Shown: in pieces, positions 25,821-42,908 of the stretch
Layout: each line of letters begins with the position of its first letter
How positions within the stretch are numbered: the first letter of the stretch is position 1
From: a virus
DNA: 64,000 bases
Reading direction: 5' to 3' (one strand)
Virus genome (UHGV): UHGV-1558314
The notes under the pieces: model-generated
The model's input: only the letters and a program-made list of their open reading frames with translations
The model's database searches: none
Told to the model about the DNA's origin: nothing
Position numbers and translations under genes: made by a program

Positions 25821-26306
25821 TCATTTGTAGTGTTCAGTTATGTATGCAGAGCATAGCAAAACAACTGATACGCAAATGACAATGTATGTTGGCGTAATCA
25901 GTGTCACATTGAATAGCAATGCAGTCAATGCGCATACTGTTACTGATATGAGTGTTGAAATGAATGCAGCATATGCACTAAATTCGCCTTTTAACAAACG
26001 TTCGATGATATATGTTGTCGCAACAGACAGTAAGACTACGCATGCAAATAACAACAGCCAAGTTGAGTTTGACGTTGTCGGCTCTTCAATAAATTGCAAT
26101 GTTGCTGATGGCACTTCAATGTTGTTTGGCGCTTGTAATGTGCCACTCACTGCATCTGCATACATCACAGTTAAGTAGTGTCGTTGAATTTCTGCTGCGT
26201 CTACTTTATAGATTCTATGCCATGCAACATCTGATATGATGTATGTTGCAACCATAAATGCGGCAATGCATAGCATATAAGAGCCAAACTTTGCAATCGG
26301 TTTCAT
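25821..26306 (-). CDS. hypothetical polytopic membrane protein
   Basis: Several hydrophobic segments; start uncertain. Confidence 0.4.
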   Translation of the reverse strand: MKPIAKFGSYMLCIAAFMVATYIISDVAWHRIYKVDAAEIQRHYLTVMYADAVSGTLQAPNNIEVPSATLQFIEEPTTSNSTWLLLFACVVLLSVATTYIIERLLKGEFSAYAAFISTLISVTVCALTALLFNVTLITPTYIVICVSVVLLCSAYITEHYK

Positions 26307-26340
26307 GCAAATATATTTTTGTTTGTATATGTACATAAAA

Positions 26341-26370
26341 GAGCAAGTTCTCAATGTGGAGAACTTGCTC
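26341..26370 (-). terminator. hairpin terminator at the end of the tRNA cluster
   Basis: Perfect 12-bp stem gagcaagttctc / gagaacttgctc with 6-nt loop; T-run follows on the minus strand. Confidence 0.5.
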
Positions 26371-26759
26371 AGCTGACCTGTTGCCAGGTGAAAGCGTGGT
26401 GCAGCACCTTGTGCTGCAATGGCTATGCTGCCATCGCCATAACGGGCTGAGCATTGCCCAGCATCATTACACGACCAGCTGCGTTAAGCGTACGCTTTGC
26501 TTTGTTGAAAAATTTGCCAGTTATTGGCTATACACATCTGTTCGTACACGTTCATAAGCCGTCAAATACCTGTCACCCCCAATGCTTGGACAGTTGTCAG
26601 TCAGTTGTCCAGCTGACTGCAGTCTTTCTGAGTGTATCAAGTTCAGCGATTCTGCATCTAAAATGACAATGGTTCAAAATGTGGAGGTGCCGCCATCGAA
26701 GGCGGGTCCGTGCAAACTACGTTACGACTTCTTGCTTTCGCAACTTGTCGACATGCATT

Positions 26760-26830
26760 GCAATACGACAGGACTCGAACCTGCGACCTCGGATTGGACG
26801 TCCGCGCTCTTACCGCTGAGCTACGTATTC
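26760..26830 (-). tRNA. tRNA-like, possibly Gly(TCC); non-canonical anticodon arm
   Basis: Canonical D-arm TAGCTCAGCGGTAAGAGC and T-arm GCAGG-TTCGAGT-CCTGT, but the anticodon stem pairs poorly (loop CGTCCAA) and there is a G-G at 1:72. May be a degenerate tRNA. Confidence 0.4.
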
Positions 26831-26920
26831 TTATCAATTGACTGCACTGCAATGCAATCAATCGCGCCAATGACACCTGACGCATAATTGCAGTTATGCG
26901 TAACAATTCAAATGTCATTG

Positions 26921-26993
26921 AGCCAACTGCAGGAATCGAACCTGTAACCTGCTGATTACAAATCAGCTGCTCTGCCAATTGAGCTAAGTTGGC
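26921..26993 (-). tRNA. tRNA-Thr (anticodon TGT)
   Basis: Folded by hand: acceptor GCCAACT/AGTTGGC, D-arm GCTC-AATTGGCA-GAGC, anticodon stem GCTGA/TCAGC with loop TTTGTAA, T-loop TTCGATT. Confidence 0.8.
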
Positions 26994-27075
26994 ATAAAGT
27001 CGTTGGGCCATTGCAACCCAAACCTATCATCTTTGCATAGCCAAAGATGCAAGCGCTCTCTTACACCACGACTTG

Positions 27076-27147
27076 TAGCCGAACTTGGAGTCGAACCAAG
27101 CTTTCGAGAATGAAAATCTCGCGTCCTAACCGATAGACGAAACGGCC
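27076..27147 (-). tRNA. tRNA-Glu (anticodon TTC)
   Basis: D-arm TTCGTCTATCGGTTAGGAC resembles bacterial tRNA-Glu; anticodon stem CGAGA/TCTCG with loop TTTTCAT; T-arm CTTGG-TTCGACT-CCAAG; two T-T mismatches at the base of the acceptor stem. Confidence 0.6.
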
Positions 27148-27330
27148 AAGAGCAGTTCAAGTCTGCAGCATTGAACTGCGGAAGCAATGCCTGTACGGGC
27201 AACCAATTGTGCAGATACAGCGACATTGCAAAATCACACCGAACCAAGTTTGTGGCTCTTCTGTCTCATAAAAACAGTAATCATTACACTTGGCACCAAT
27301 GATTCTGATGTAAAAATCGGTGTGTTATGC

Positions 27331-27413
27331 GGAAAGCGGAGGTGTCGATCCCCATACGCGAACGTACTCACGGTTTTCAAGACCGGATTTGCAGCCGTGC
27401 AAATTCACTTTCC
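27331..27413 (-). tRNA. tRNA-Ser-like (anticodon TGA), long variable arm, atypical D-arm and T-loop
   Basis: Acceptor GGAAAGT/GCTTTCC; anticodon arm CCGGTCTTGAAAACCG identical to E. coli tRNA-Ser(UGA); variable-arm hairpin GTACG-TTCG-CGTAT; T-loop ATCGACA. Confidence 0.45.
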
Positions 27414-27608
27414 ATAAAACATTGCATAAGCATTCTTATCTCTTGATGAGACCAAGTAGCTAATTTGGCAAGTTTGTTATATCTATCGTGACTGTTGCAG
27501 TTTATTTGTCACTCAATACACAAAATTTTCGAACATTCATTGACAGCACTGCAATATCGCTTTTTTAAGCTCAGCCATCAATGTATTTATGCAATGTATA
27601 ACAATTCG

Positions 27609-27690
27609 TAGCCAAACCGGGACTTGAACCCAGACTCCTAATGGAACAACATTTTGAGTGTTGCGTGTCTACCAATTCCACCATTTGGCC
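27609..27690 (-). tRNA. tRNA-Leu (anticodon CAA)
   Basis: Acceptor GGCCAAA/TTTGGCT, D-arm GTG-GAATTGGTAGA-CAC typical of tRNA-Leu, anticodon stem CAACA/TGTTG with loop CTCAAAA, long variable arm, T-loop TTCAAGT. Confidence 0.8.
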
Positions 27691-27794
27691 ATTTGCAAAT
27701 GCAAGCTGTTTCATAACTGTTTGCATTTGCTGTCGTAAATTTGTATTGTTTAGCCTCTAAAACATGATTCAACTAATCAAAAACCAGAGAATTG

Positions 27795-27867
27795 TCGAGA
27801 ATGTGCGATTTGAACGCCAATTATACGTCCCAAACGTATCGTGTTACCGGATTACACTACATTCTCG
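27795..27867 (-). tRNA. tRNA-Pro (anticodon TGG)
   Basis: Perfect anticodon stem ATACG/CGTAT with loop TTTGGGA; D-loop AATCCGGTAA; T-loop TTCAAAT; ends uncertain by 1 nt. Confidence 0.65.
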
Positions 27868-27874
27868 TTAATTG

Positions 27875-27946
27875 TTGAACCGTCTGGACTCGAACCAGAA
27901 ATGGCTGAACCAAAATCAGCTGTGTTACCGATTACACCACGATTCA
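27875..27946 (-). tRNA. tRNA-Gln (anticodon TTG)
   Basis: Acceptor TGAATCG/CGGTTCA (one G-T), D-arm GTGT-AATCGGTA-ACAC, anticodon stem GCTGA/TCAGC with loop TTTTGGT, T-arm TCTGG-TTCGAGT-CCAGA. Confidence 0.75.
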
Positions 27947-28077
27947 ATCGATGCAAATCTTTGTAAGGCGTTTGCAATCCTGTAATTTGTTTATGTATTT
28001 TTGTTTGTTTAGTAATTATATGAATATATTACTACAAACATTTATGATTTGCACCATATACTGCAACTTTGTATCAC

Positions 28078-28440
28078 TTAGTTGTACAATGTGACTTTGT
28101 CTTTGATTTTGTGCATATGCAACGTACTTGCAATGTCTACAGGCAGTTTATATGACCCATCAGATATTGCAAATGCAGCAAGTTGCATAACTAAATCAGC
28201 ATTGTCTGTAAGAACTTCTGCAAATTTACTGGCATCACAGCATGCACAATATTTGCGTATTGTTGCAGTGTGTTTCTGTATGATGATTCGTACATACACA
28301 GTTTGAGCAATGATTGCACGTCGTAAATCGACTTTGACAATACACATAGTGTCATCGTGGTCATTTATGACATGTCGCCATACGCCGTCATTGCAAATGC
28401 CATGCTGCGCTATAAGTGATTTTGTGATATCAGACATCAT
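28078..28440 (-). CDS. hypothetical protein
   Basis: 120-aa ORF. Confidence 0.4.
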   Translation of the reverse strand: MMSDITKSLIAQHGICNDGVWRHVINDHDDTMCIVKVDLRRAIIAQTVYVRIIIQKHTATIRKYCACCDASKFAEVLTDNADLVMQLAAFAISDGSYKLPVDIASTLHMHKIKDKVTLYN

Positions 28441-28485: not shown

Positions 28486-28986
28486 TCATTCGATGTTACC
28501 AGATAGTATCTGAATGGCATCCAATGCATTTTCGCGTATTAAGCCAAACTTACCTATAACTTGAACAAAATGTTTGTCATTTTCAAATGCTGAGTCATCA
28601 AGAATGACATATTGTTTGATGTCATATTTCTCAACAAGTGCAGGCACTGCATCAAATCTGTCATAAAAGCCCTCAGCGTAAATTGATGGCAACAAATAGC
28701 CTGGCATATTACGCTTAAGCCACATTGTCTTGCAGTCATCAAGAATAGCCCAACTACTTATCAAGCATATTGCACCAACATCTGACATCTGACAAATGTA
28801 TCTCAACCAGCCAACACATCGTTCATCAAACAATTGGCCAAACTCATCTCTTGACTGCACATCCATGTTTGCACGATGCTTTGACATGTGCAACATATTG
28901 AGATTATCTTGGCTATTCAGAACACCATCAATGTCCAAGAATATCACTTTGTCAGGCCAAATCACTTTGCTTGTTGTGTTGTTCAT
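28486..28986 (-). CDS. HAD-superfamily phosphatase (possible 5'(3')-deoxyribonucleotidase-like)
   Basis: HAD motif I FLDIDGVL, Ser/Thr motif ISSW, acidic motif ILDD. Confidence 0.5.
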   Translation of the reverse strand: MNNTTSKVIWPDKVIFLDIDGVLNSQDNLNMLHMSKHRANMDVQSRDEFGQLFDERCVGWLRYICQMSDVGAICLISSWAILDDCKTMWLKRNMPGYLLPSIYAEGFYDRFDAVPALVEKYDIKQYVILDDSAFENDKHFVQVIGKFGLIRENALDAIQILSGNIE

Positions 28987-39619: not shown

Positions 39620-42600
39620 TCAATTGCATGCTGAATGTCCGCAGTTGGTGCATCGAACACAGCCGTCAAACTTGACCATGTCACCACCGCATTCAGGGCA
39701 CTTTGCATACATTTTTGAGCCATCTTGAATATGCAGTTTCAATGCACGACCAATTGCTTTGCAGAATGTTCCGACAGATGCAAAGCTTTTTGCAGTTTGG
39801 TCGACAATTTCGCCAAGGTCAATACCATTGCGAAGCATCGTTGAGTATAGTCGAGTAATTGTTTGTTGCTCATCTGAACCAAGACGTTCTGATATATTGT
39901 CATAGTGCTGCAAGAATGACAAATTGTCACCAAGCTTGTAGTGCTTCTTATCAGTCTTTGTGATTGTCGTTTGTTCAATGCCTTGCAACTTGTCGAATTC
40001 ATCTTTGTCAAGTTCAAATGCAAAGATTTCATAAGGTCGACCGTCATCACAGCCTACAAGAATACACCACTTGCGCTTATACACTGACACGCAATACACT
40101 GCAGCAGGCAATACTGGTTTTCGTTTTGAGCGATGACCAGATTGCAAGATGTGCGACTTGTCTTTTGACTGCTTGTCATCTTTTACGAGAACACCTGCAC
40201 GTGAGCCGTCTCGATAAATTGTGCAGCCCTTGCAGCCAGATTTCCATGCAGTCATATAAATTTCACGAACGAGTTCTTTTGTTGCAGAGTTTGGAATGTT
40301 GACCGTTACAGAAATTGACGAGTCAATGTATTTTTGCAATGCACCTTGCAGTTTCACCTTGCCAATCCAGTCAACATCTTCAGTAGTTGCCTTGTAGTAT
40401 GGTGATTGAACAAGCAACTCATCAATGACTGCTTGTGGAGCATTTGATAGCCAAGCTTTGATACGAGACATTTCTGCTTCTGACCATTCAATGCCAGTAT
40501 CTTTGACAAGAGTAAATTTGCCATCGCCAAGCTGCAATCGTTTACAAATCCACTGCATCAATGGGTAGTGAACTACAGCATATTCAATGAACTTGTCACC
40601 AGTAGTCTCATCAATGAAGTTGATGTCAGCTTCATTATCAACTGCAGTAGGCTTGCGACGACGTTTATGCAGCGGCATAAAGACAGGTTCAATGCCAGAC
40701 GTTGTCTGAGTCATCAAAGCTGTAGTGCCTGTTGGCGCAATTGTGGTCGTGTTAATGTTTCGACGGCCAAATTGCTGATAAGTTTTGATATGCTCATCAT
40801 CAATCGGTTCAGATAGCATACGCTGTACGAACTTTGACTGCACATCTGTGTCATAGTCGAATATTGCAAATGCGCCACGAATCTTTGCTAAGTCAATCGA
40901 TGCTTCATAAGTAGCCTTTACAAGCCATTGTTGCATAGTGACTGCGAAGTCAATTGACTCTTGTGAACCATAGCGCAAGCCAAGCATTGCCATTGCATCG
41001 CCAAGTGCAAGGAAGCCCATGCCATATCTACGAGTATTTGTCAATTTGTCATAGACTTTGTGCCACAAGTCAAGTTCAGTCTTTTTGATGTCAAAGTCTT
41101 CTTTGTCTGACTGTACCTTTGCAATGATTCGTTGCACTGCTTCAATTTCAAGCTGTACAAGGTCATCCATGATGACTGCACAATCATACGTGTCTTTATA
41201 GAATGTCTCAAAGTCAAATGACGCATCAGCAGTCCAAGGATTAAGCACGTATGCAGTCAAATTGCGATGTGACAAAATGCAGCTTGCATATGCTGCAAGA
41301 GGTTGTTCACCACAATTTAATGTATTGACTACTTGCTTGTCATTGACTGCAATAAAGAAATTGTGGAAGTCTTCTACTGTACCATTGTACACATCTGCTT
41401 TGTTCATGTGACGTGTTGCAACGACTTTGACAATTGTATCACCAGTAGTGTCAATGTCTGCATATTTGCTGCAGCCACCTAATGCTGCACAAGCTTCACA
41501 GCAATATGACTGTTCACGATTGTCATAAGAGATTTCGAATTCTTTACCACAGCACTCGCATTGTTTGATAACTGTATTTCGTTCTGTTTTTACAAGCTCA
41601 TCAGTCTTCAATGCAATTGATAGCTTATCTGCGCTTGGCATATCAATTGCCCACAACGTGTCATTTGTCGCAAGGTCAATTGCATACTTGAAATCACCAT
41701 TAGCAAGTCTGAACTCATGATTTGCTGTGCAATTGATGACATGACCATCATCAAGCACAATCTGAATGATTTGTGCATTGTGTGCAGTCAATCTTGGTCG
41801 ACGCATTGTACGCACAACAAGCTTGCCATTAGCGTCAAGACAATACACTGGAATGTCTTCGCCGTTATCAGCAAGCTCTTTGAATGTCTTCAAGCCTGAG
41901 CCATCAGCAACAAGCACTTTTGTGTCACCAGTGAAGCATGGATTTGTTGAGCGCTCTTCATACATTTTGCCGTATGCTTTCGAGTTCGACTCTTCCATAA
42001 TGCGGTCCCAAAAGAATACACCAGGTTCTGCAGATGCCCATACATTATCAACAATTTTGTCAAACAATGCTTTTGCATCTGATGTCTTATGCAGCTCTTG
42101 ACCATTAGAGCCACGCCAAACATGCTCAAACTGTTGTTCTGCAAGCACTGCACGCATAAATGCATCAGTAAGCTTGATGGAAATGTTTGCGCATGTGATT
42201 TTCGTCAAGTCCTTTTTTGCATCAATGAACTTATCTGCATCAGGATGCTCAATTGACAATGACAACATCAATGCGCCACGCCTGCCATTTTGTGCAACTT
42301 CTTTTGTCGATGTTGAAAAACGTTCCATAAATGACACTACACCAGACGTCGTAACAGCACTGTTATGCACTTCTACGCCTTCTGGACGAATATGTGACAA
42401 ATCATGGCCGACACCACCACGACGTTTCATCAACTGAACTTGTTCTTCATCTATTTTGAAGATGCCGCCATATGAGTCTGCATCATTGCCTATTACATAG
42501 CAATTTGACATTGATGTGTAACCGCCAAGACCAATACCAGCCATTGGAGAACCACCAAGTACAAATCGCTTAAATGGCTCAAGCAAATATGCAAGTCGCT

Positions 42601-42841
42601 CTTTTGACAATACACGTTTGCCTGTCTGTTCTTCAAATTGTGATTCTATACGGTCAAATTCATTGACCCAGCGTTCATGCATATCAGACAATGAGTGTTC
42701 ATACAGATTGTCTTTGTCATGATGCAAGTATTTTGACATGCATATGTCAGCAGCCATTGAGTCGCCTGTAAATTCATGTGTCAGTGTAGTGTGCACTTCA
42801 GCATATTCAGGCGACCCAATTTGAATAGGACGTTTTGTCAT
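39620..42841 (-). CDS. ribonucleotide reductase catalytic subunit (probably class II NrdJ-like), intein-containing
   Basis: Active-site NPCGE is split (…ERSTNP | intein | CGEQPL…); C-terminal zinc ribbon CPECGG...CVRCTNCGH; start taken at MTKRP (ATG at 42841). Confidence 0.8.
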   Translation of the reverse strand: MTKRPIQIGSPEYAEVHTTLTHEFTGDSMAADICMSKYLHHDKDNLYEHSLSDMHERWVNEFDRIESQFEEQTGKRVLSKERLAYLLEPFKRFVLGGSPMAGIGLGGYTSMSNCYVIGNDADSYGGIFKIDEEQVQLMKRRGGVGHDLSHIRPEGVEVHNSAVTTSGVVSFMERFSTSTKEVAQNGRRGALMLSLSIEHPDADKFIDAKKDLTKITCANISIKLTDAFMRAVLAEQQFEHVWRGSNGQELHKTSDAKALFDKIVDNVWASAEPGVFFWDRIMEESNSKAYGKMYEERSTNPCFTGDTKVLVADGSGLKTFKELADNGEDIPVYCLDANGKLVVRTMRRPRLTAHNAQIIQIVLDDGHVINCTANHEFRLANGDFKYAIDLATNDTLWAIDMPSADKLSIALKTDELVKTERNTVIKQCECCGKEFEISYDNREQSYCCEACAALGGCSKYADIDTTGDTIVKVVATRHMNKADVYNGTVEDFHNFFIAVNDKQVVNTLNCGEQPLAAYASCILSHRNLTAYVLNPWTADASFDFETFYKDTYDCAVIMDDLVQLEIEAVQRIIAKVQSDKEDFDIKKTELDLWHKVYDKLTNTRRYGMGFLALGDAMAMLGLRYGSQESIDFAVTMQQWLVKATYEASIDLAKIRGAFAIFDYDTDVQSKFVQRMLSEPIDDEHIKTYQQFGRRNINTTTIAPTGTTALMTQTTSGIEPVFMPLHKRRRKPTAVDNEADINFIDETTGDKFIEYAVVHYPLMQWICKRLQLGDGKFTLVKDTGIEWSEAEMSRIKAWLSNAPQAVIDELLVQSPYYKATTEDVDWIGKVKLQGALQKYIDSSISVTVNIPNSATKELVREIYMTAWKSGCKGCTIYRDGSRAGVLVKDDKQSKDKSHILQSGHRSKRKPVLPAAVYCVSVYKRKWCILVGCDDGRPYEIFAFELDKDEFDKLQGIEQTTITKTDKKHYKLGDNLSFLQHYDNISERLGSDEQQTITRLYSTMLRNGIDLGEIVDQTAKSFASVGTFCKAIGRALKLHIQDGSKMYAKCPECGGDMVKFDGCVRCTNCGHSACN
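41315..41938 (-). mobile_element. mini-intein (208 aa) inside the ribonucleotide reductase gene
   Basis: Begins CFTGDTKVLV (block A), contains NCTANHEF (block B) and VYNGTVEDFHNFF (block G-like), ends ...VVNTLN followed by extein Cys; precise excision restores NPCGE. No LAGLIDADG or HNH domain; carries a Cys-rich insert CECCGKEF...CCEACAALGGC. Confidence 0.75.
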
Positions 42842-42908
42842 TGTAACAGTGCATTTAAGTGTTTTAACAGTTTTATGTATAAATTGTACAACAATGGGCA
42901 AAATTTTG

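What the first reader, a model, noticed from the sequence alone, without database searches (positions are those of the whole stretch)
26760..27946. Minus-strand tRNA cluster including structurally atypical members
Seven tRNA-like genes were folded by hand. Thr(TGT), Leu(CAA), Pro(TGG) and Gln(TTG) look canonical. Glu(TTC) has mismatches at the base of the acceptor stem. A Ser(TGA)-like gene has an unusual D-arm hairpin and an A at T-loop position 54. One candidate has canonical D and T arms but an anticodon arm that does not pair, so it may be a decayed tRNA or a tRNA-derived regulatory RNA. The Ser-like gene can formally be read on the other strand with an opal-reading TCA anticodon. Other tRNAs may have been missed in 26560..26760 and 27180..27600.
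Basis: seen in the sequence. Interest (0 to 1): 0.5.

Follow-up and report, generated by a model that had tools for sequence, protein, structure and literature searches.

The report
Phage tRNA–tmRNA operon, odd-shaped tRNAs

Summary
The cluster is real. ARAGORN and Rfam confirm six minus-strand tRNAs: Gln, Pro, Leu, Glu, Thr and Gly.

The seventh, the Ser(UGA)-like gene at 27330-27413, is not decayed. It is an (8/4) tRNA-Ser, with an 8-bp acceptor stem, 4-bp T stem, 6-bp D stem with a CGGC tetraloop, long variable arm and G73. Mukai et al. 2017 described this class in phage tRNA clusters. I found 96 distinct relatives in IMG/VR with covariation in every testable helix. A model built without the window scores it 86.9 bits, on the minus strand only.

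- **"Unpaired anticodon arm" candidate:** this is tRNA-Gly(UCC). It pairs, but has G33 and a G1·G72 mismatch.
- **Opal (plus-strand) reading:** rejected.
- **26332-26774:** holds a permuted two-piece tmRNA, then a terminator.

Comparison with near-identical contigs shows that the bodies of Pro, Ser and the tmRNA tRNA-like domain are dimorphic cassettes (48-62% identity) set in 93-100% identical flanks. The cassettes assort independently. One relative carries a homing-endonuclease-like gene inside the cluster.

Verdict: a known kind of element, with a modestly new population-level twist.

The parts
27874..27946 (-). tRNA-Gln(UUG), canonical 7/5
   Evidence: ARAGORN. Rfam tRNA 59.1 bits. 100% identical in L001 and L038.
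27795..27867 (-). tRNA-Pro(UGG), 8/4-like. It has an 8-bp acceptor stem with C1-G72 and A73, a U8-A9 linker, and a T stem of 3 Watson-Crick pairs plus a conserved G.A. This is allele 'A'.
   Evidence: ARAGORN and Rfam 49.9 bits. Family of 11 distinct sequences, A5: acceptor 100% paired, 5 of 8 pairs covary, pair 50:64 never standard. 49% identical to the canonical Pro of L001 and 100% to L038.
27608..27690 (-). tRNA-Leu(CAA), type II, canonical
   Evidence: ARAGORN. Rfam 54.2 bits. Identical in all haplotypes.
27330..27413 (-). (8/4) tRNA-Ser(UGA). It has an 8-bp acceptor stem, AA linker, 6-bp D stem with CGGC tetraloop, anticodon loop CUUGAAA, variable arm GUACG-UUCG-CGUAU, T arm GGGG-AUCGACA-CCUC and G73. 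No CCA is encoded. This is allele 'A'.
   Evidence: Rfam tRNA-Sec 41.8 bits, below the gathering score. ARAGORN -ps90. CM R1, built without the window, 86.9 bits. Covariation over 96 relatives. Identical in L039 and L196.
27075..27147 (-). tRNA-Glu(UUC) with U6.U67 and U7.U66 mismatches
   Evidence: ARAGORN and Rfam 46.4 bits. Identical in all four haplotypes.
26996..27074 (-). tRNA-shaped spacer, probably a decayed tRNA. It has a 7-bp acceptor-like stem, an 8-nt 'anticodon' loop and the non-canonical T-loop TGCAATG.
   Evidence: Found by ARAGORN only at -ps90. MFE z = -2.8. Changes in the anticodon-stem region are not compensated between haplotypes.
26920..26993 (-). tRNA-Thr(UGU), canonical
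   Evidence: ARAGORN. Rfam 67.1 bits.
26760..26830 (-). tRNA-Gly(UCC), atypical. It has G1.G72, an anticodon stem of 4 Watson-Crick pairs plus G.A, and G33 in place of U33.
   Evidence: ARAGORN and Rfam 44.1 bits. GGA and GGG make up only 7% and 4% of Gly codons. Other phage Gly(UCC) genes have U33 or C33.
26332..26774 (-). Permuted (two-piece) tmRNA gene. The 3' tRNA-like domain is at 26681-26720, with T arm CCGCC-UUCGAU-GGCGG and acceptor strand CACCUCC-A. The intervening segment is ~26581-26680. The 5' tRNA-like domain GGGGGUG... is at 26554-26580. The tag ORF GKFFNKAKRTLNAAGRVMMLGNAQPVMAMAA* is at 26423-26518. This is tRNA-like-domain allele 'A'.
   Evidence: Rfam tmRNA_permuted 24.9 bits, below the gathering score. 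ARAGORN finds it only at -ps80. ARAGORN at default threshold calls the orthologous gene in L001 and L039. G3:U70 is kept, and 5 compensatory double changes separate the alleles.
26341..26370 (-). Intrinsic terminator closing the RNA operon
   Evidence: 12-bp stem with 6 G-C pairs, followed by a T tract. Conserved in L001, L038 and L039.

Best explanation
This is one minus-strand RNA operon of a ~175-kb T4-like myovirus. It runs from about 28000 to the terminator at 26341-26370. It encodes seven tRNAs (Gln, Pro, Leu, Ser, Glu, Thr, Gly), one tRNA-shaped remnant and a two-piece tmRNA.

Shown:
- The Ser(UGA) gene is a bona fide (8/4) tRNA-Ser of the allo-tRNA class. It belongs to a large phage-borne family with a fixed T arm (GGGG-AUCGACA-CCUC) and a CGGC D-tetraloop.
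- The Pro(UGG) gene belongs to a smaller phage family that also has an 8-bp acceptor stem and a shortened T stem.
- The bodies of Pro, Ser and the tmRNA tRNA-like domain exist as two very different alleles. One is canonical and the other non-canonical. They sit at identical positions in otherwise near-identical phage genomes, and the three loci assort independently.

Inferred:
- The transcript is cut by host RNase P and 3' processing enzymes, and CCA is added, since only C74 is encoded.
- Host SerRS charges the 8/4 Ser tRNA through its long variable arm and G73. ProRS charges the Pro tRNA through C1-G72 and A73.
- The tRNAs feed translation of the phage's preferred A-ending codons.
- The cassettes move between co-infecting relatives by homologous recombination through the conserved spacers. 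A homing endonuclease such as the one inserted in the cluster of one relative may stimulate this.
For: **Gene calls.**

**8/4 Ser family.**
A control 16-mer gave 32 chance hits.
- 96 distinct sequences form standard pairs in 97.4% of cells, against 40-47% when the partners are slid.
- All 8 acceptor pairs and all 6 D-stem pairs change on both sides. Pair 8:91 is UA 67, GC 14, AU 10, CG 2, UG 1, with none unpaired.
- CM R1, built without the window, scores it 86.9 bits (E~1e-21) on the minus strand. The canonical Ser alleles score 32.5 bits.
- A full-length homologue is present in Prevotella Lak megaphages, with compensatory changes.
- Mukai et al. 2017 (PMC5389517) describe exactly this class in phage tRNA clusters, found as sub-threshold tRNA-Sec hits.

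**Pro family.**

**Codon usage.** The cognate codons are the phage's most used for their amino acids: TCA 44%, CCA 47%, CAA 65%, GAA 71%, ACA 51%. TTG is 31%.

**Cassettes.** Identity is 48-62% inside Pro, Ser and the tmRNA tRNA-like domain, against 93-100% in the other tRNA genes, most spacers and the rest of the tmRNA. Three segments are lower: the stretch upstream of Gln 82-89%, the Pro-Leu spacer 72-90% and the tmRNA intervening segment 88-89%. Haplotypes are listed as Pro allele/Ser allele/tmRNA tRNA-like-domain allele, with A = non-canonical and B = canonical:
- window: A/A/A
- L001: B/B/B
- L038: A/B/A
- L039: ?/A/B
- L195/L196: A/A/A

**tmRNA.** The alleles keep G3:U70 and differ by 5 compensatory double changes. 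ARAGORN calls a permuted tmRNA.

**Operon end.** Terminator.

**Endonuclease.** A DUF559 endonuclease ORF is inserted between Gly and the tmRNA in L038. The precedent is T4 SegB, which sits in the T4 tRNA cluster (PMC2330249).
Against: - There is no expression, processing or aminoacylation data.
- The host is unknown, so codon supplementation relative to the host cannot be tested.
- The 8th pair of the Pro acceptor stem (G8-C65) never varies. The 8/4 assignment for Pro therefore rests on the covarying pair 1:72, the 10 nt before the D stem, and the failure of the 7/5 alternative. It does not rest on covariation of that pair.
- The Ser family was collected through its invariant T arm, so the T stem itself is untested. 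Acceptor pairing was used as a filter: 96 of 101 distinct sequences passed.
- The window's tmRNA tRNA-like domain has a 6-nt T loop and falls below the default thresholds of both ARAGORN and Rfam.
- The endonuclease gene is absent from the window, and its target is unknown.
- Only 4-5 haplotypes were recovered.
Confidence: 0.8

Rival explanations
1. The atypical Ser-like and Pro genes are decaying pseudogenes, or tRNA-derived regulatory RNAs that no longer decode.
For: Default ARAGORN and the gathering-threshold Rfam scan miss the Ser gene. The Pro T stem has only 3 Watson-Crick pairs. A tRNA-shaped remnant does sit next door at 26996-27074. Mukai et al. report some allo-tRNAs that are inactive in translation.
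Against: Family-wide compensatory change is seen in every testable helix. The sequence is identical in independent samples while the flanking spacers differ by 4-5%. The Ser anticodon matches Ser identity elements: the long variable arm and G73. The cognate codons TCA and CCA are the phage's most used Ser and Pro codons.
Confidence: 0.05
2. tRNA-Gly(UCC), the reader's 'anticodon arm does not pair' candidate, is functionally impaired or serves a non-decoding role such as decoy or primer. It is not an ordinary elongator.
For: It has G33 instead of the near-universal U33, a G1.G72 mismatch, and an anticodon stem of 4 Watson-Crick pairs plus G.A. L038 adds a C4.A69 mismatch. GGA and GGG make up only 7% and 4% of Gly codons, unlike the other six tRNAs. 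Its single-sequence fold is no better than shuffles, z = -0.56.
Against: Rfam tRNA scores it 44.1 bits against a gathering score of 29. Its D and T arms are perfect. Three of the four contigs are identical and L038 differs at one base (70/71). A tRNA for a codon that is rare in the phage could still matter if the host lacks it.
Confidence: 0.25
3. The Ser-like gene is read from the plus strand as an opal-suppressor or selenocysteine tRNA with anticodon UCA.
For: The reverse complement of a cloverleaf is formally a cloverleaf. The best Rfam family is tRNA-Sec.
Against: The tRNA-Sec hit and the R1 hit are on the minus strand only. On the plus strand, G.U pairs become A.C, and the D-loop GG and the T loop are lost. 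Relatives encode CCA 3' of G73/U73 in the minus-strand sense. The acceptor/T stack is 12 bp, not the 13 bp of tRNA-Sec. TGA ends 23 of 45 large ORFs. The whole operon is on the minus strand.
Confidence: 0.01
4. The non-canonical alleles (8/4 Ser, 8/4-like Pro, and the tmRNA domain with a 6-nt T loop) are kept as escape variants. Their altered D/T 'elbow' sequences would evade either a host tRNA-cleaving defence or a homing endonuclease that, like T4 SegB, recognises the canonical T-stem-loop DNA motif. This adds to the main explanation and does not exclude it.
For: All three 'A' alleles depart from the GGTTCGAATCC-type T arm, while their 'B' partners keep it. SegB recognises an 11-bp T-stem-loop motif and drives inheritance of the T4 tRNA region (PMC2330249). 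Phage tRNAs are known to counter tRNA-targeting defences (PMC10264068, PMC11555353 and PMC13096335). An endonuclease-like ORF lies next to allele A of the tmRNA domain in L038. A HAD_SAK_2 RNA-repair-type domain is encoded nearby.
Against: Five other tRNAs in the same operon keep canonical T arms in all haplotypes. There is no cleavage data. The endonuclease is absent from the window. The polymorphism could be neutral.
Confidence: 0.18

Closest known systems
(8/4) tRNA-Ser / allo-tRNA class (Mukai et al. 2017, NAR 45:2776; PMC5389517)
   Same: Both have an 8-bp acceptor stem plus a 4-bp T stem, giving a 12-bp stack. Both have a tRNA-Sec-like long D stem with a tetraloop, a long variable arm and a G73 discriminator. 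Both surface as sub-threshold hits of the Rfam tRNA-Sec model. Both carry a Ser anticodon and sit inside a tRNA cluster of an uncultured phage.
   Different: Here it is one of two alleles at a fixed locus, and sister genomes carry a canonical 7/5 tRNA-Ser(UGA) there. No (8/4) tRNA-His accompanies it. The partner with an 8-bp acceptor stem is a tRNA-Pro, which the main text of that paper (its supplements were not available) does not list among the 8/4 species (Ser, His, Cys, Sec).
Bacterial selenocysteine tRNA (Rfam RF01852)
   Same: Both have an 8-bp acceptor stem, a 6-bp D stem with a 4-nt loop and a long variable arm. It is the best-scoring Rfam family.
   Different: The anticodon is UGA (Ser), not UCA. 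The arrangement is 8/4 (12 bp), not 8/5 (13 bp). The score of 41.8 bits is below the gathering score of 47.
Phage T4 tRNA gene cluster with the SegB homing endonuclease (PMC2330249; PMC13096335)
   Same: Both are compact tRNA operons in a T4-type myovirus, and tRNA content varies between relatives. A free-standing endonuclease gene is inserted among the tRNA genes of one relative.
   Different: The ORF here has a DUF559/PD-(D/E)xK-type domain, not GIY-YIG. It is absent from the window. What varies here is the architecture of orthologous tRNAs, not just their presence or absence. A tmRNA is part of the operon.
Phage-encoded two-piece (permuted) tmRNA, e.g. methylophage Melnitz (PMC9004378); Rfam RF04321
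   Same: The 3' tRNA-like domain lies upstream of the 5' domain and tag ORF. G3:U70 is present, and the tag ends in ...AA followed by a stop. ARAGORN calls it 'permuted'.
   Different: The window allele has a 6-nt T loop and scores below Rfam's gathering score (24.9 against 47) and ARAGORN's default threshold. The tag is long, at 31 aa. No glutamine riboswitch was seen: the Rfam scan found nothing else.

Membership tests
(8/4) tRNA-Ser (allo-tRNA class) | 8-bp acceptor stem | tested here: met
   GGAAAGUG pairs with CGCUUUCC. Across 96 relatives all 8 pairs covary. Pair 8:91 is never unpaired and is seen as UA, GC, AU, CG and UG.
(8/4) tRNA-Ser (allo-tRNA class) | 4-bp T stem, giving a 12-bp acceptor/T stack | tested here: met
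   GGGG pairs with CCUC around the 7-nt loop AUCGACA. A fifth pair (U75:N91) is impossible in the window and in 24 of 94 relatives. The stem itself is invariant, so covariation is not testable.
(8/4) tRNA-Ser (allo-tRNA class) | tRNA-Sec-like D arm: a long stem with a tetraloop | tested here: met
   UUUGCA-CGGC-UGCAAA. All 6 pairs covary in the family and 98.6% of cells are paired.
(8/4) tRNA-Ser (allo-tRNA class) | Long variable arm and a G73/U73 discriminator (SerRS identity) | tested here: met
   The variable arm is GUACG-UUCG-CGUAU and the discriminator is G73. The variable-arm stem is 100% paired, and 3 of its 4 pairs covary.
(8/4) tRNA-Ser (allo-tRNA class) | Serine anticodon, which separates tRNA-Ser from recoding allo-tRNAs | tested here: met
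   The loop is CUUGAAA and the anticodon is UGA. Most relatives have UGA, and a few have CGA or GGA.
(8/4) tRNA-Ser (allo-tRNA class) | Serylation by SerRS and use in translation | not testable with these tools
   Inferred only, from the identity elements and from TCA being 44% of Ser codons.
Selenocysteine tRNA (RF01852) | UCA anticodon, 13-bp acceptor/T stack, score at or above the Rfam gathering score | tested here: not met
   The anticodon is UGA, the stack is 12 bp (8/4), and the score is 41.8 bits against 47.
Canonical type-II tRNA-Ser (RF00005, 7/5) | 7-bp acceptor stem, 5-bp T stem, 3-4-bp D stem with a large loop, T loop UUCRANY | tested here: not met
   Default ARAGORN and the gathering-threshold Rfam scan do not call it. 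The T loop is AUCGACA and the D loop has 4 nt. The canonical allele is present in L001 and L038 instead.
8/4-type tRNA-Pro (proposed here) | 8-bp acceptor stem including C1-G72, A73, a 2-nt linker and a shortened T stem | tested here: inconclusive
   In 11 sequences the acceptor stem is 100% paired. Pairs 1:72, 3:70, 4:69, 5:68 and 7:66 change on both sides. There are 10 nt before the D stem. The T stem has 3 Watson-Crick pairs plus an invariant purine.purine pair. However, pair 8:65 (G-C) never varies.
Two-piece (permuted) tmRNA | Permuted order, with the 3' tRNA-like half upstream of the 5' half | tested here: met
   The 3' domain is at 26681-26720, upstream of the 5' domain at 26554-26580 on the transcribed strand.
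Two-piece (permuted) tmRNA | Alanine identity through G3:U70 in a 7-bp acceptor stem | tested here: met
   GGGGGUG pairs with CACCUCC, with G3.U70. The other allele, GGGCUCG with CGAGUCC, keeps G3.U70 and has 3 compensatory changes.
Two-piece (permuted) tmRNA | Tag reading frame ending in a hydrophobic ...AA followed by a stop | tested here: met
   The tag is GKFFNKAKRTLNAAGRVMMLGNAQPVMAMAA*. It is 98-99% conserved at the DNA level between alleles.
Two-piece (permuted) tmRNA | Reaches the curated detection thresholds | tested here: not met
   The window allele scores 24.9 bits against Rfam RF04321 (gathering score 47), and ARAGORN finds it only at -ps80. ARAGORN at default threshold calls the orthologous allele in L001 and L039.
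Two-piece (permuted) tmRNA | SmpB partner and trans-translation activity | not testable with these tools
   No SmpB domain appears among the window ORFs of 150 aa or more. Host SmpB is presumed.

The most novel reading that the evidence does not exclude
The operon is a hotspot of balanced polymorphism in tRNA architecture. Canonical (7/5) and non-canonical alleles of tRNA-Ser, tRNA-Pro and the tmRNA tRNA-like domain co-circulate in one phage population. The non-canonical alleles are 8/4 Ser, 8/4-like Pro and the 6-nt-T-loop tmRNA domain. On this reading they persist because they escape something that recognises the canonical tRNA elbow or T arm. That could be a host tRNA-cleaving defence or a T-arm-targeting homing endonuclease of the SegB type. 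This would give 8/4 tRNAs, whose purpose has been unknown since 2017, a biological rationale. It would also add tRNA-Pro to the 8/4 class.
Probability: 0.15. Interest if true: 0.7.

Novelty: new member of a known kind. Interest (0 to 1): 0.4.

Why it matters
Routine annotation fails on this class. ARAGORN and Rfam at default settings miss the Ser gene and the tmRNA allele, and they report the Pro gene as an ordinary tRNA. Phage tRNA inventories therefore under-count the class, even though IMG/VR holds at least 96 distinct members.

Finding 7/5 and 8/4 versions of the same isoacceptor at the same locus in otherwise near-identical genomes is a natural swap experiment. It argues that the two architectures are functionally interchangeable for decoding. 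It also provides matched pairs for testing why 8/4 tRNAs exist, for example through resistance to tRNA-targeting defences or to homing endonucleases. The 8/4 scaffold is also the chassis used in synthetic selenoprotein work, so natural diversity in it has practical value.

Tried and rejected
- **D-arm 16-mer TTTGCACGGCTGCAAA in IMG/VR.** All 32 hits were chance matches in unrelated contexts. This served as an empirical chance baseline.
- **T-arm pattern of the tmRNA allele A.** All 17 hits were in GC-rich coding sequence.
- **GenBank phages.** There is no close relative at the DNA level, only generic tRNA hits. Nothing was found for the tmRNA or for Pro-A.
- **More distant relatives found through topoisomerase II (61-64% identity; L035, L037).** They have no tRNAs between the topoisomerase genes, so the operon is specific to this lineage at this site.
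- **Spacer 22-mer in JGI metagenomes.** It gave only one extra contig, L039.
- **PHROGs.** It gave nothing for the endonuclease-like ORF or the genes flanking the operon.
[quoted passage not shown] It is uninformative for Gly.
- **8/4 reading of the tmRNA tRNA-like domain.** I considered and rejected it, because position 8 is A opposite G.
- **tRNA-Sec, opal suppressor and recoding allo-tRNA readings.** Rejected; see the rival explanations and the membership test.
Full report
**Observation.** ARAGORN finds six minus-strand tRNA genes in the window: Gly(tcc) 26760-26830, Thr(tgt) 26920-26993, Glu(ttc) 27075-27147, Leu(caa) 27608-27690, Pro(tgg) 27794-27867 and Gln(ttg) 27874-27946. The same six reach Rfam's tRNA gathering score, at 44-67 bits.

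A permissive Rfam scan places it at 27331-27413(-) as a tRNA-Sec hit of 41.8 bits, below the gathering score of 47. ARAGORN at -ps90 draws it as tRNA-Ser(tga) with an 8-bp acceptor stem and a 4-bp T stem.

Its arm forms C-G, G-C, G-C and A-U plus a G.A, around the loop CGUCCAA. So it does pair, but it has G33 instead of U33 and a G1.G72 mismatch. The two U.U mismatches at the base of the Glu acceptor stem are real.

**Context.** The window belongs to a T4-like myovirus. It encodes a gp23-type capsid protein, T4-type terminase, tail sheath, clamp loader, DHFR, NAD-dependent ligase, both topoisomerase II subunits and an intein-containing RNR.
- GenBank phages hold no close relative. The best topoisomerase matches are ~38% identical, to Chryseobacterium phages.
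- A 174.6-kb IMG/VR contig (L001) and a 14.7-kb Logan contig (L038) are 92-98% identical over the neighbourhood.
- A 2.2-kb metagenome contig (L039) and three further short contigs cover parts of the cluster.
- Relatives at 61-64% topoisomerase identity have no tRNAs at this site.

**The Ser-like gene is an (8/4) tRNA-Ser.** Its sequence reads:

GGAAAGUG-AA-UUUGCA-CGGC-UGCAAA-U-CCGGU-CUUGAAA-ACCGU-GA-GUACG-UUCG-CGUAU-GGGG-AUCGACA-CCUC-CGCUUUCC-G.

This is the architecture Mukai et al. (2017) called 8/4. They found it as near-miss tRNA-Sec hits and reported it for tRNA-Ser with serine anticodons in tRNA clusters of uncultured phages (PMC5389517).

I tested family membership directly.
- BLAST found a full-length 74% match in the Prevotella Lak megaphages. 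The match has compensatory differences in the acceptor, D, anticodon and variable stems and an identical T arm.
An unrelated 16-mer gave 32 purely chance hits.
- 118 of 123 matches lie in the same tRNA context, giving 96 distinct sequences.
- On that alignment the 8/4 cloverleaf forms standard pairs in 97.4% of cells, against 40-47% for slid partners. The covariation score is 0.78 against ~0.1.
- All eight acceptor pairs and all six D-stem pairs change on both sides. The diagnostic eighth pair is UA 67, GC 14, AU 10, CG 2, UG 1 and never unpaired.
- A fifth T-stem pair, which the 7/5 alternative requires, is impossible in the window and in 24 of 94 relatives.
- A covariance model built from 91 relatives without the window scores the window gene 86.9 bits (E~1e-21), on the minus strand only. 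The canonical Ser alleles of L001 and L038 score 32.5 bits.

Two caveats apply. The T arm is invariant by ascertainment, and acceptor pairing was used to trim the sequences (96 of 101 passed).

Many relatives encode CCA after G73/U73 in this orientation. TGA is the commonest stop codon in the window. Together with the strand-specific model hits, this rules out the plus-strand opal reading.

**Pro is not canonical.** The window Pro reads:

CGAGAAUG-UA-GUGU-AAUCCGGUA-ACAC-G-AUACG-UUUGGGA-CGUAU-AAUU-GGCG-UUCAAAU-CGCA-CAUUCUCG-A.

Ten nucleotides precede the D stem, against nine in canonical tRNAs. Eleven distinct family members came from large phage contigs, many of them in clusters of 10-26 tRNAs.
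- Across these the 8-bp acceptor stem is 100% paired.
- Five of its pairs change on both sides, including the outermost C1-G72 (also seen as U-A and A-U).
- A73 is invariant.
- The T stem has three covarying Watson-Crick pairs plus a purine.purine pair that is never standard: G.A in ten sequences and A.G in one.
- Pair 8:65 is an invariant G-C.

I therefore call the gene '8/4-like' rather than proven 8/4. One family contig (L185) also carries an 8/4 Ser, at 65.7 bits.

**A tmRNA follows the tRNAs.** Rfam's tmRNA_permuted model gives a weak hit, 24.9 bits, at 26560-26710. ARAGORN at default threshold calls a permuted tmRNA in L001 and L039. With -ps80 it calls one in the window at 26332-26774.
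- The 3' tRNA-like domain is at 26681-26720.
- The 5' domain is at 26554-26580.
- The tag GKFFNKAKRTLNAAGRVMMLGNAQPVMAMAA* is at 26423-26518.
- A 12-bp-stem terminator at 26341-26370 closes the unit.

Phage two-piece tmRNAs are known, mostly from aquatic phages (PMC9004378; PMC11915505). Nothing further lies in 27180-27600.

**Cassette polymorphism.** Alignments of the window with L001, L038 and L039 show 93-100% identity in the other five tRNA genes, most spacers, the tag and the terminator. The stretch upstream of Gln (82-89%), the Pro-Leu spacer (72-90%) and the tmRNA intervening segment (88-89%) are somewhat more diverged. Identity then collapses in three places:
- tRNA-Pro: 49% against L001.
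- tRNA-Ser: 55% against L001 and L038.
- The two halves of the tmRNA tRNA-like domain: 48-62% against L001 and L039.

In each case the window has the non-canonical form ('A') and the other allele ('B') is textbook-canonical. The loci assort independently. Haplotypes, listed as Pro allele/Ser allele/tmRNA tRNA-like-domain allele, are:
- window and ERR1136818 contigs: A/A/A
- L001: B/B/B
- L038: A/B/A
- L039: ?/A/B
- L197 and L198: Pro-A only

The 8/4 Ser allele is identical (84/84) in L039, although the adjacent spacers differ by 4-5%. The two tmRNA alleles keep G3:U70. They differ by three compensatory double changes in the acceptor stem and two in the T stem, so both look functional. Allele A has a 6-nt T loop, which is why the detectors miss it.

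The 8/4 Ser belongs to a widespread family, so it cannot have evolved in place from the canonical allele. This is replacement of one gene by a non-orthologous one at the same site, followed by reshuffling through the conserved spacers.

L038 also carries an ~830-bp insertion exactly between tRNA-Gly and the tmRNA. It encodes a 279-aa protein with an N-terminal Cys cluster and a DUF559 nuclease-type domain (25.9 bits against a cut-off of 20.6). L038 additionally has a 28-bp footprint duplicating the first 9 nt of tRNA-Thr. The window has no homologue of this ORF. The parallel is T4 SegB, a homing endonuclease inside the T4 tRNA cluster. SegB recognises the T-stem-loop motif and forces inheritance of the surrounding tRNA genes (PMC2330249; PMC13096335).

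**How it most likely works.** The following are shown:
- gene identities;
- family structures;
- operon layout;
- allele pattern;
- codon match.

Six of the seven tRNAs read the phage's preferred codons: CAA 65%, CCA 47%, TCA 44%, GAA 71% and ACA 51% are the top codons for their amino acids, and TTG is 31%. Gly(UCC) reads rare codons, GGA 7% and GGG 4%.

The following are inferred:
- a single transcript processed by host RNase P and 3' nucleases, with CCA addition, since every gene is followed by C-A or C-G and none by CCA;
- serylation through the variable arm and G73;
- prolylation through C1-G72 and A73;
- alanylation of the tmRNA through G3:U70;
- translational supplementation for A-ending codons.

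Whether the non-canonical alleles confer escape from tRNA-directed nucleases or from a T-arm-directed homing endonuclease is an attractive but untested addition. I put it at ~15-18%.

**Verdict.** The interpretation as decayed or regulatory RNA, and the opal reading, are not supported. The atypical Ser tRNA is a new member of a published class. The 8/4-like tRNA-Pro family, the 7/5-versus-8/4 allelic swaps and the linked tmRNA dimorphism are modest new observations worth recording. Interest is moderate.

Noticed in passing
window 26996-27074 (-): A tRNA-shaped spacer lies between Glu and Thr. It has a 7-bp acceptor-like stem, an 8-nt 'anticodon' loop and the T-loop TGCAATG. Its 5' part resembles the neighbouring Gln/Pro D arm. 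It is conserved in all haplotypes, but changes in the anticodon-stem region are uncompensated, so it is probably a decayed tRNA gene.
   Followed up: partly
L038 1289-2160 (insertion relative to window ~26759/26760): An ~830-bp insertion sits between tRNA-Gly and the tmRNA. It encodes a 279-aa protein with an N-terminal Cys cluster, basic repeats and a DUF559 nuclease domain, which makes it a likely free-standing homing endonuclease. It is absent from the window, L001 and L039.
   Followed up: partly
L038 ~1027-1054 (upstream of tRNA-Thr): A 28-bp insertion, TGCCAACTTGACATAACTTGTCAAGAAT, repeats the first 9 nt of tRNA-Thr. It looks like a repair or recombination footprint.
   Followed up: no
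window 26760-26830 (-): tRNA-Gly(UCC) has G33 instead of U33, a G1.G72 mismatch and no position 26 or a 4-bp anticodon stem. It is the only tRNA of the operon whose codons are rare in the phage (GGA 7%). Other phage Gly(UCC) genes looked at have U33 or C33.
   Followed up: partly
window ~26600-26640 (-), tmRNA intervening segment: A hairpin in the segment between the two tmRNA halves shows a compensatory change: GGACA/TGTCC in the window against GAGCA/TGCTC in L001, L038 and L039. This suggests the 'spacer' is structured and under selection.
   Followed up: no
window 28486-28986 (-): A 166-aa protein with a HAD_SAK_2 domain ('Swiss Army Knife RNA repair' HAD; 51 bits) is encoded two genes upstream of the RNA operon. 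It may be linked to tRNA repair or anti-defence.
   Followed up: no
window 39620-42901 (-): The ribonucleotide reductase large subunit is interrupted by an intein (Intein_splicing domain at residues 338-517). This is another sign of selfish-element traffic in this genome.
   Followed up: no
L041 1471-1877 (uncultured huge phage LR756502): Three 8/4-type Ser tRNAs with anticodons UGA, GCU and GGA (R1 scores 82.7, 54.6 and 58.2 bits) flank a canonical tRNA-Ser(UGA) within 400 nt. Some phages therefore keep both architectures side by side.
   Followed up: partly
L162, L185 (IMG/VR contigs with the 8/4-like tRNA-Pro): These clusters also contain tRNAs with a CUA anticodon, which ARAGORN calls 'Pyl'. 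They are probably amber suppressors, hinting at stop-codon recoding in those phages. L185 packs 26 tRNAs into 12 kb.
   Followed up: no
window 26150-28100, intergenic spacers: Short TTGCA/TGCAA-containing palindromes recur in the spacers and upstream region, for example cttgcatttgcaaat, gcaaatgcaaac, gattgcaaacgcc and agatttgcat. They could be processing or promoter signals. No sigma-70-type promoter was found upstream of tRNA-Gln.
   Followed up: no
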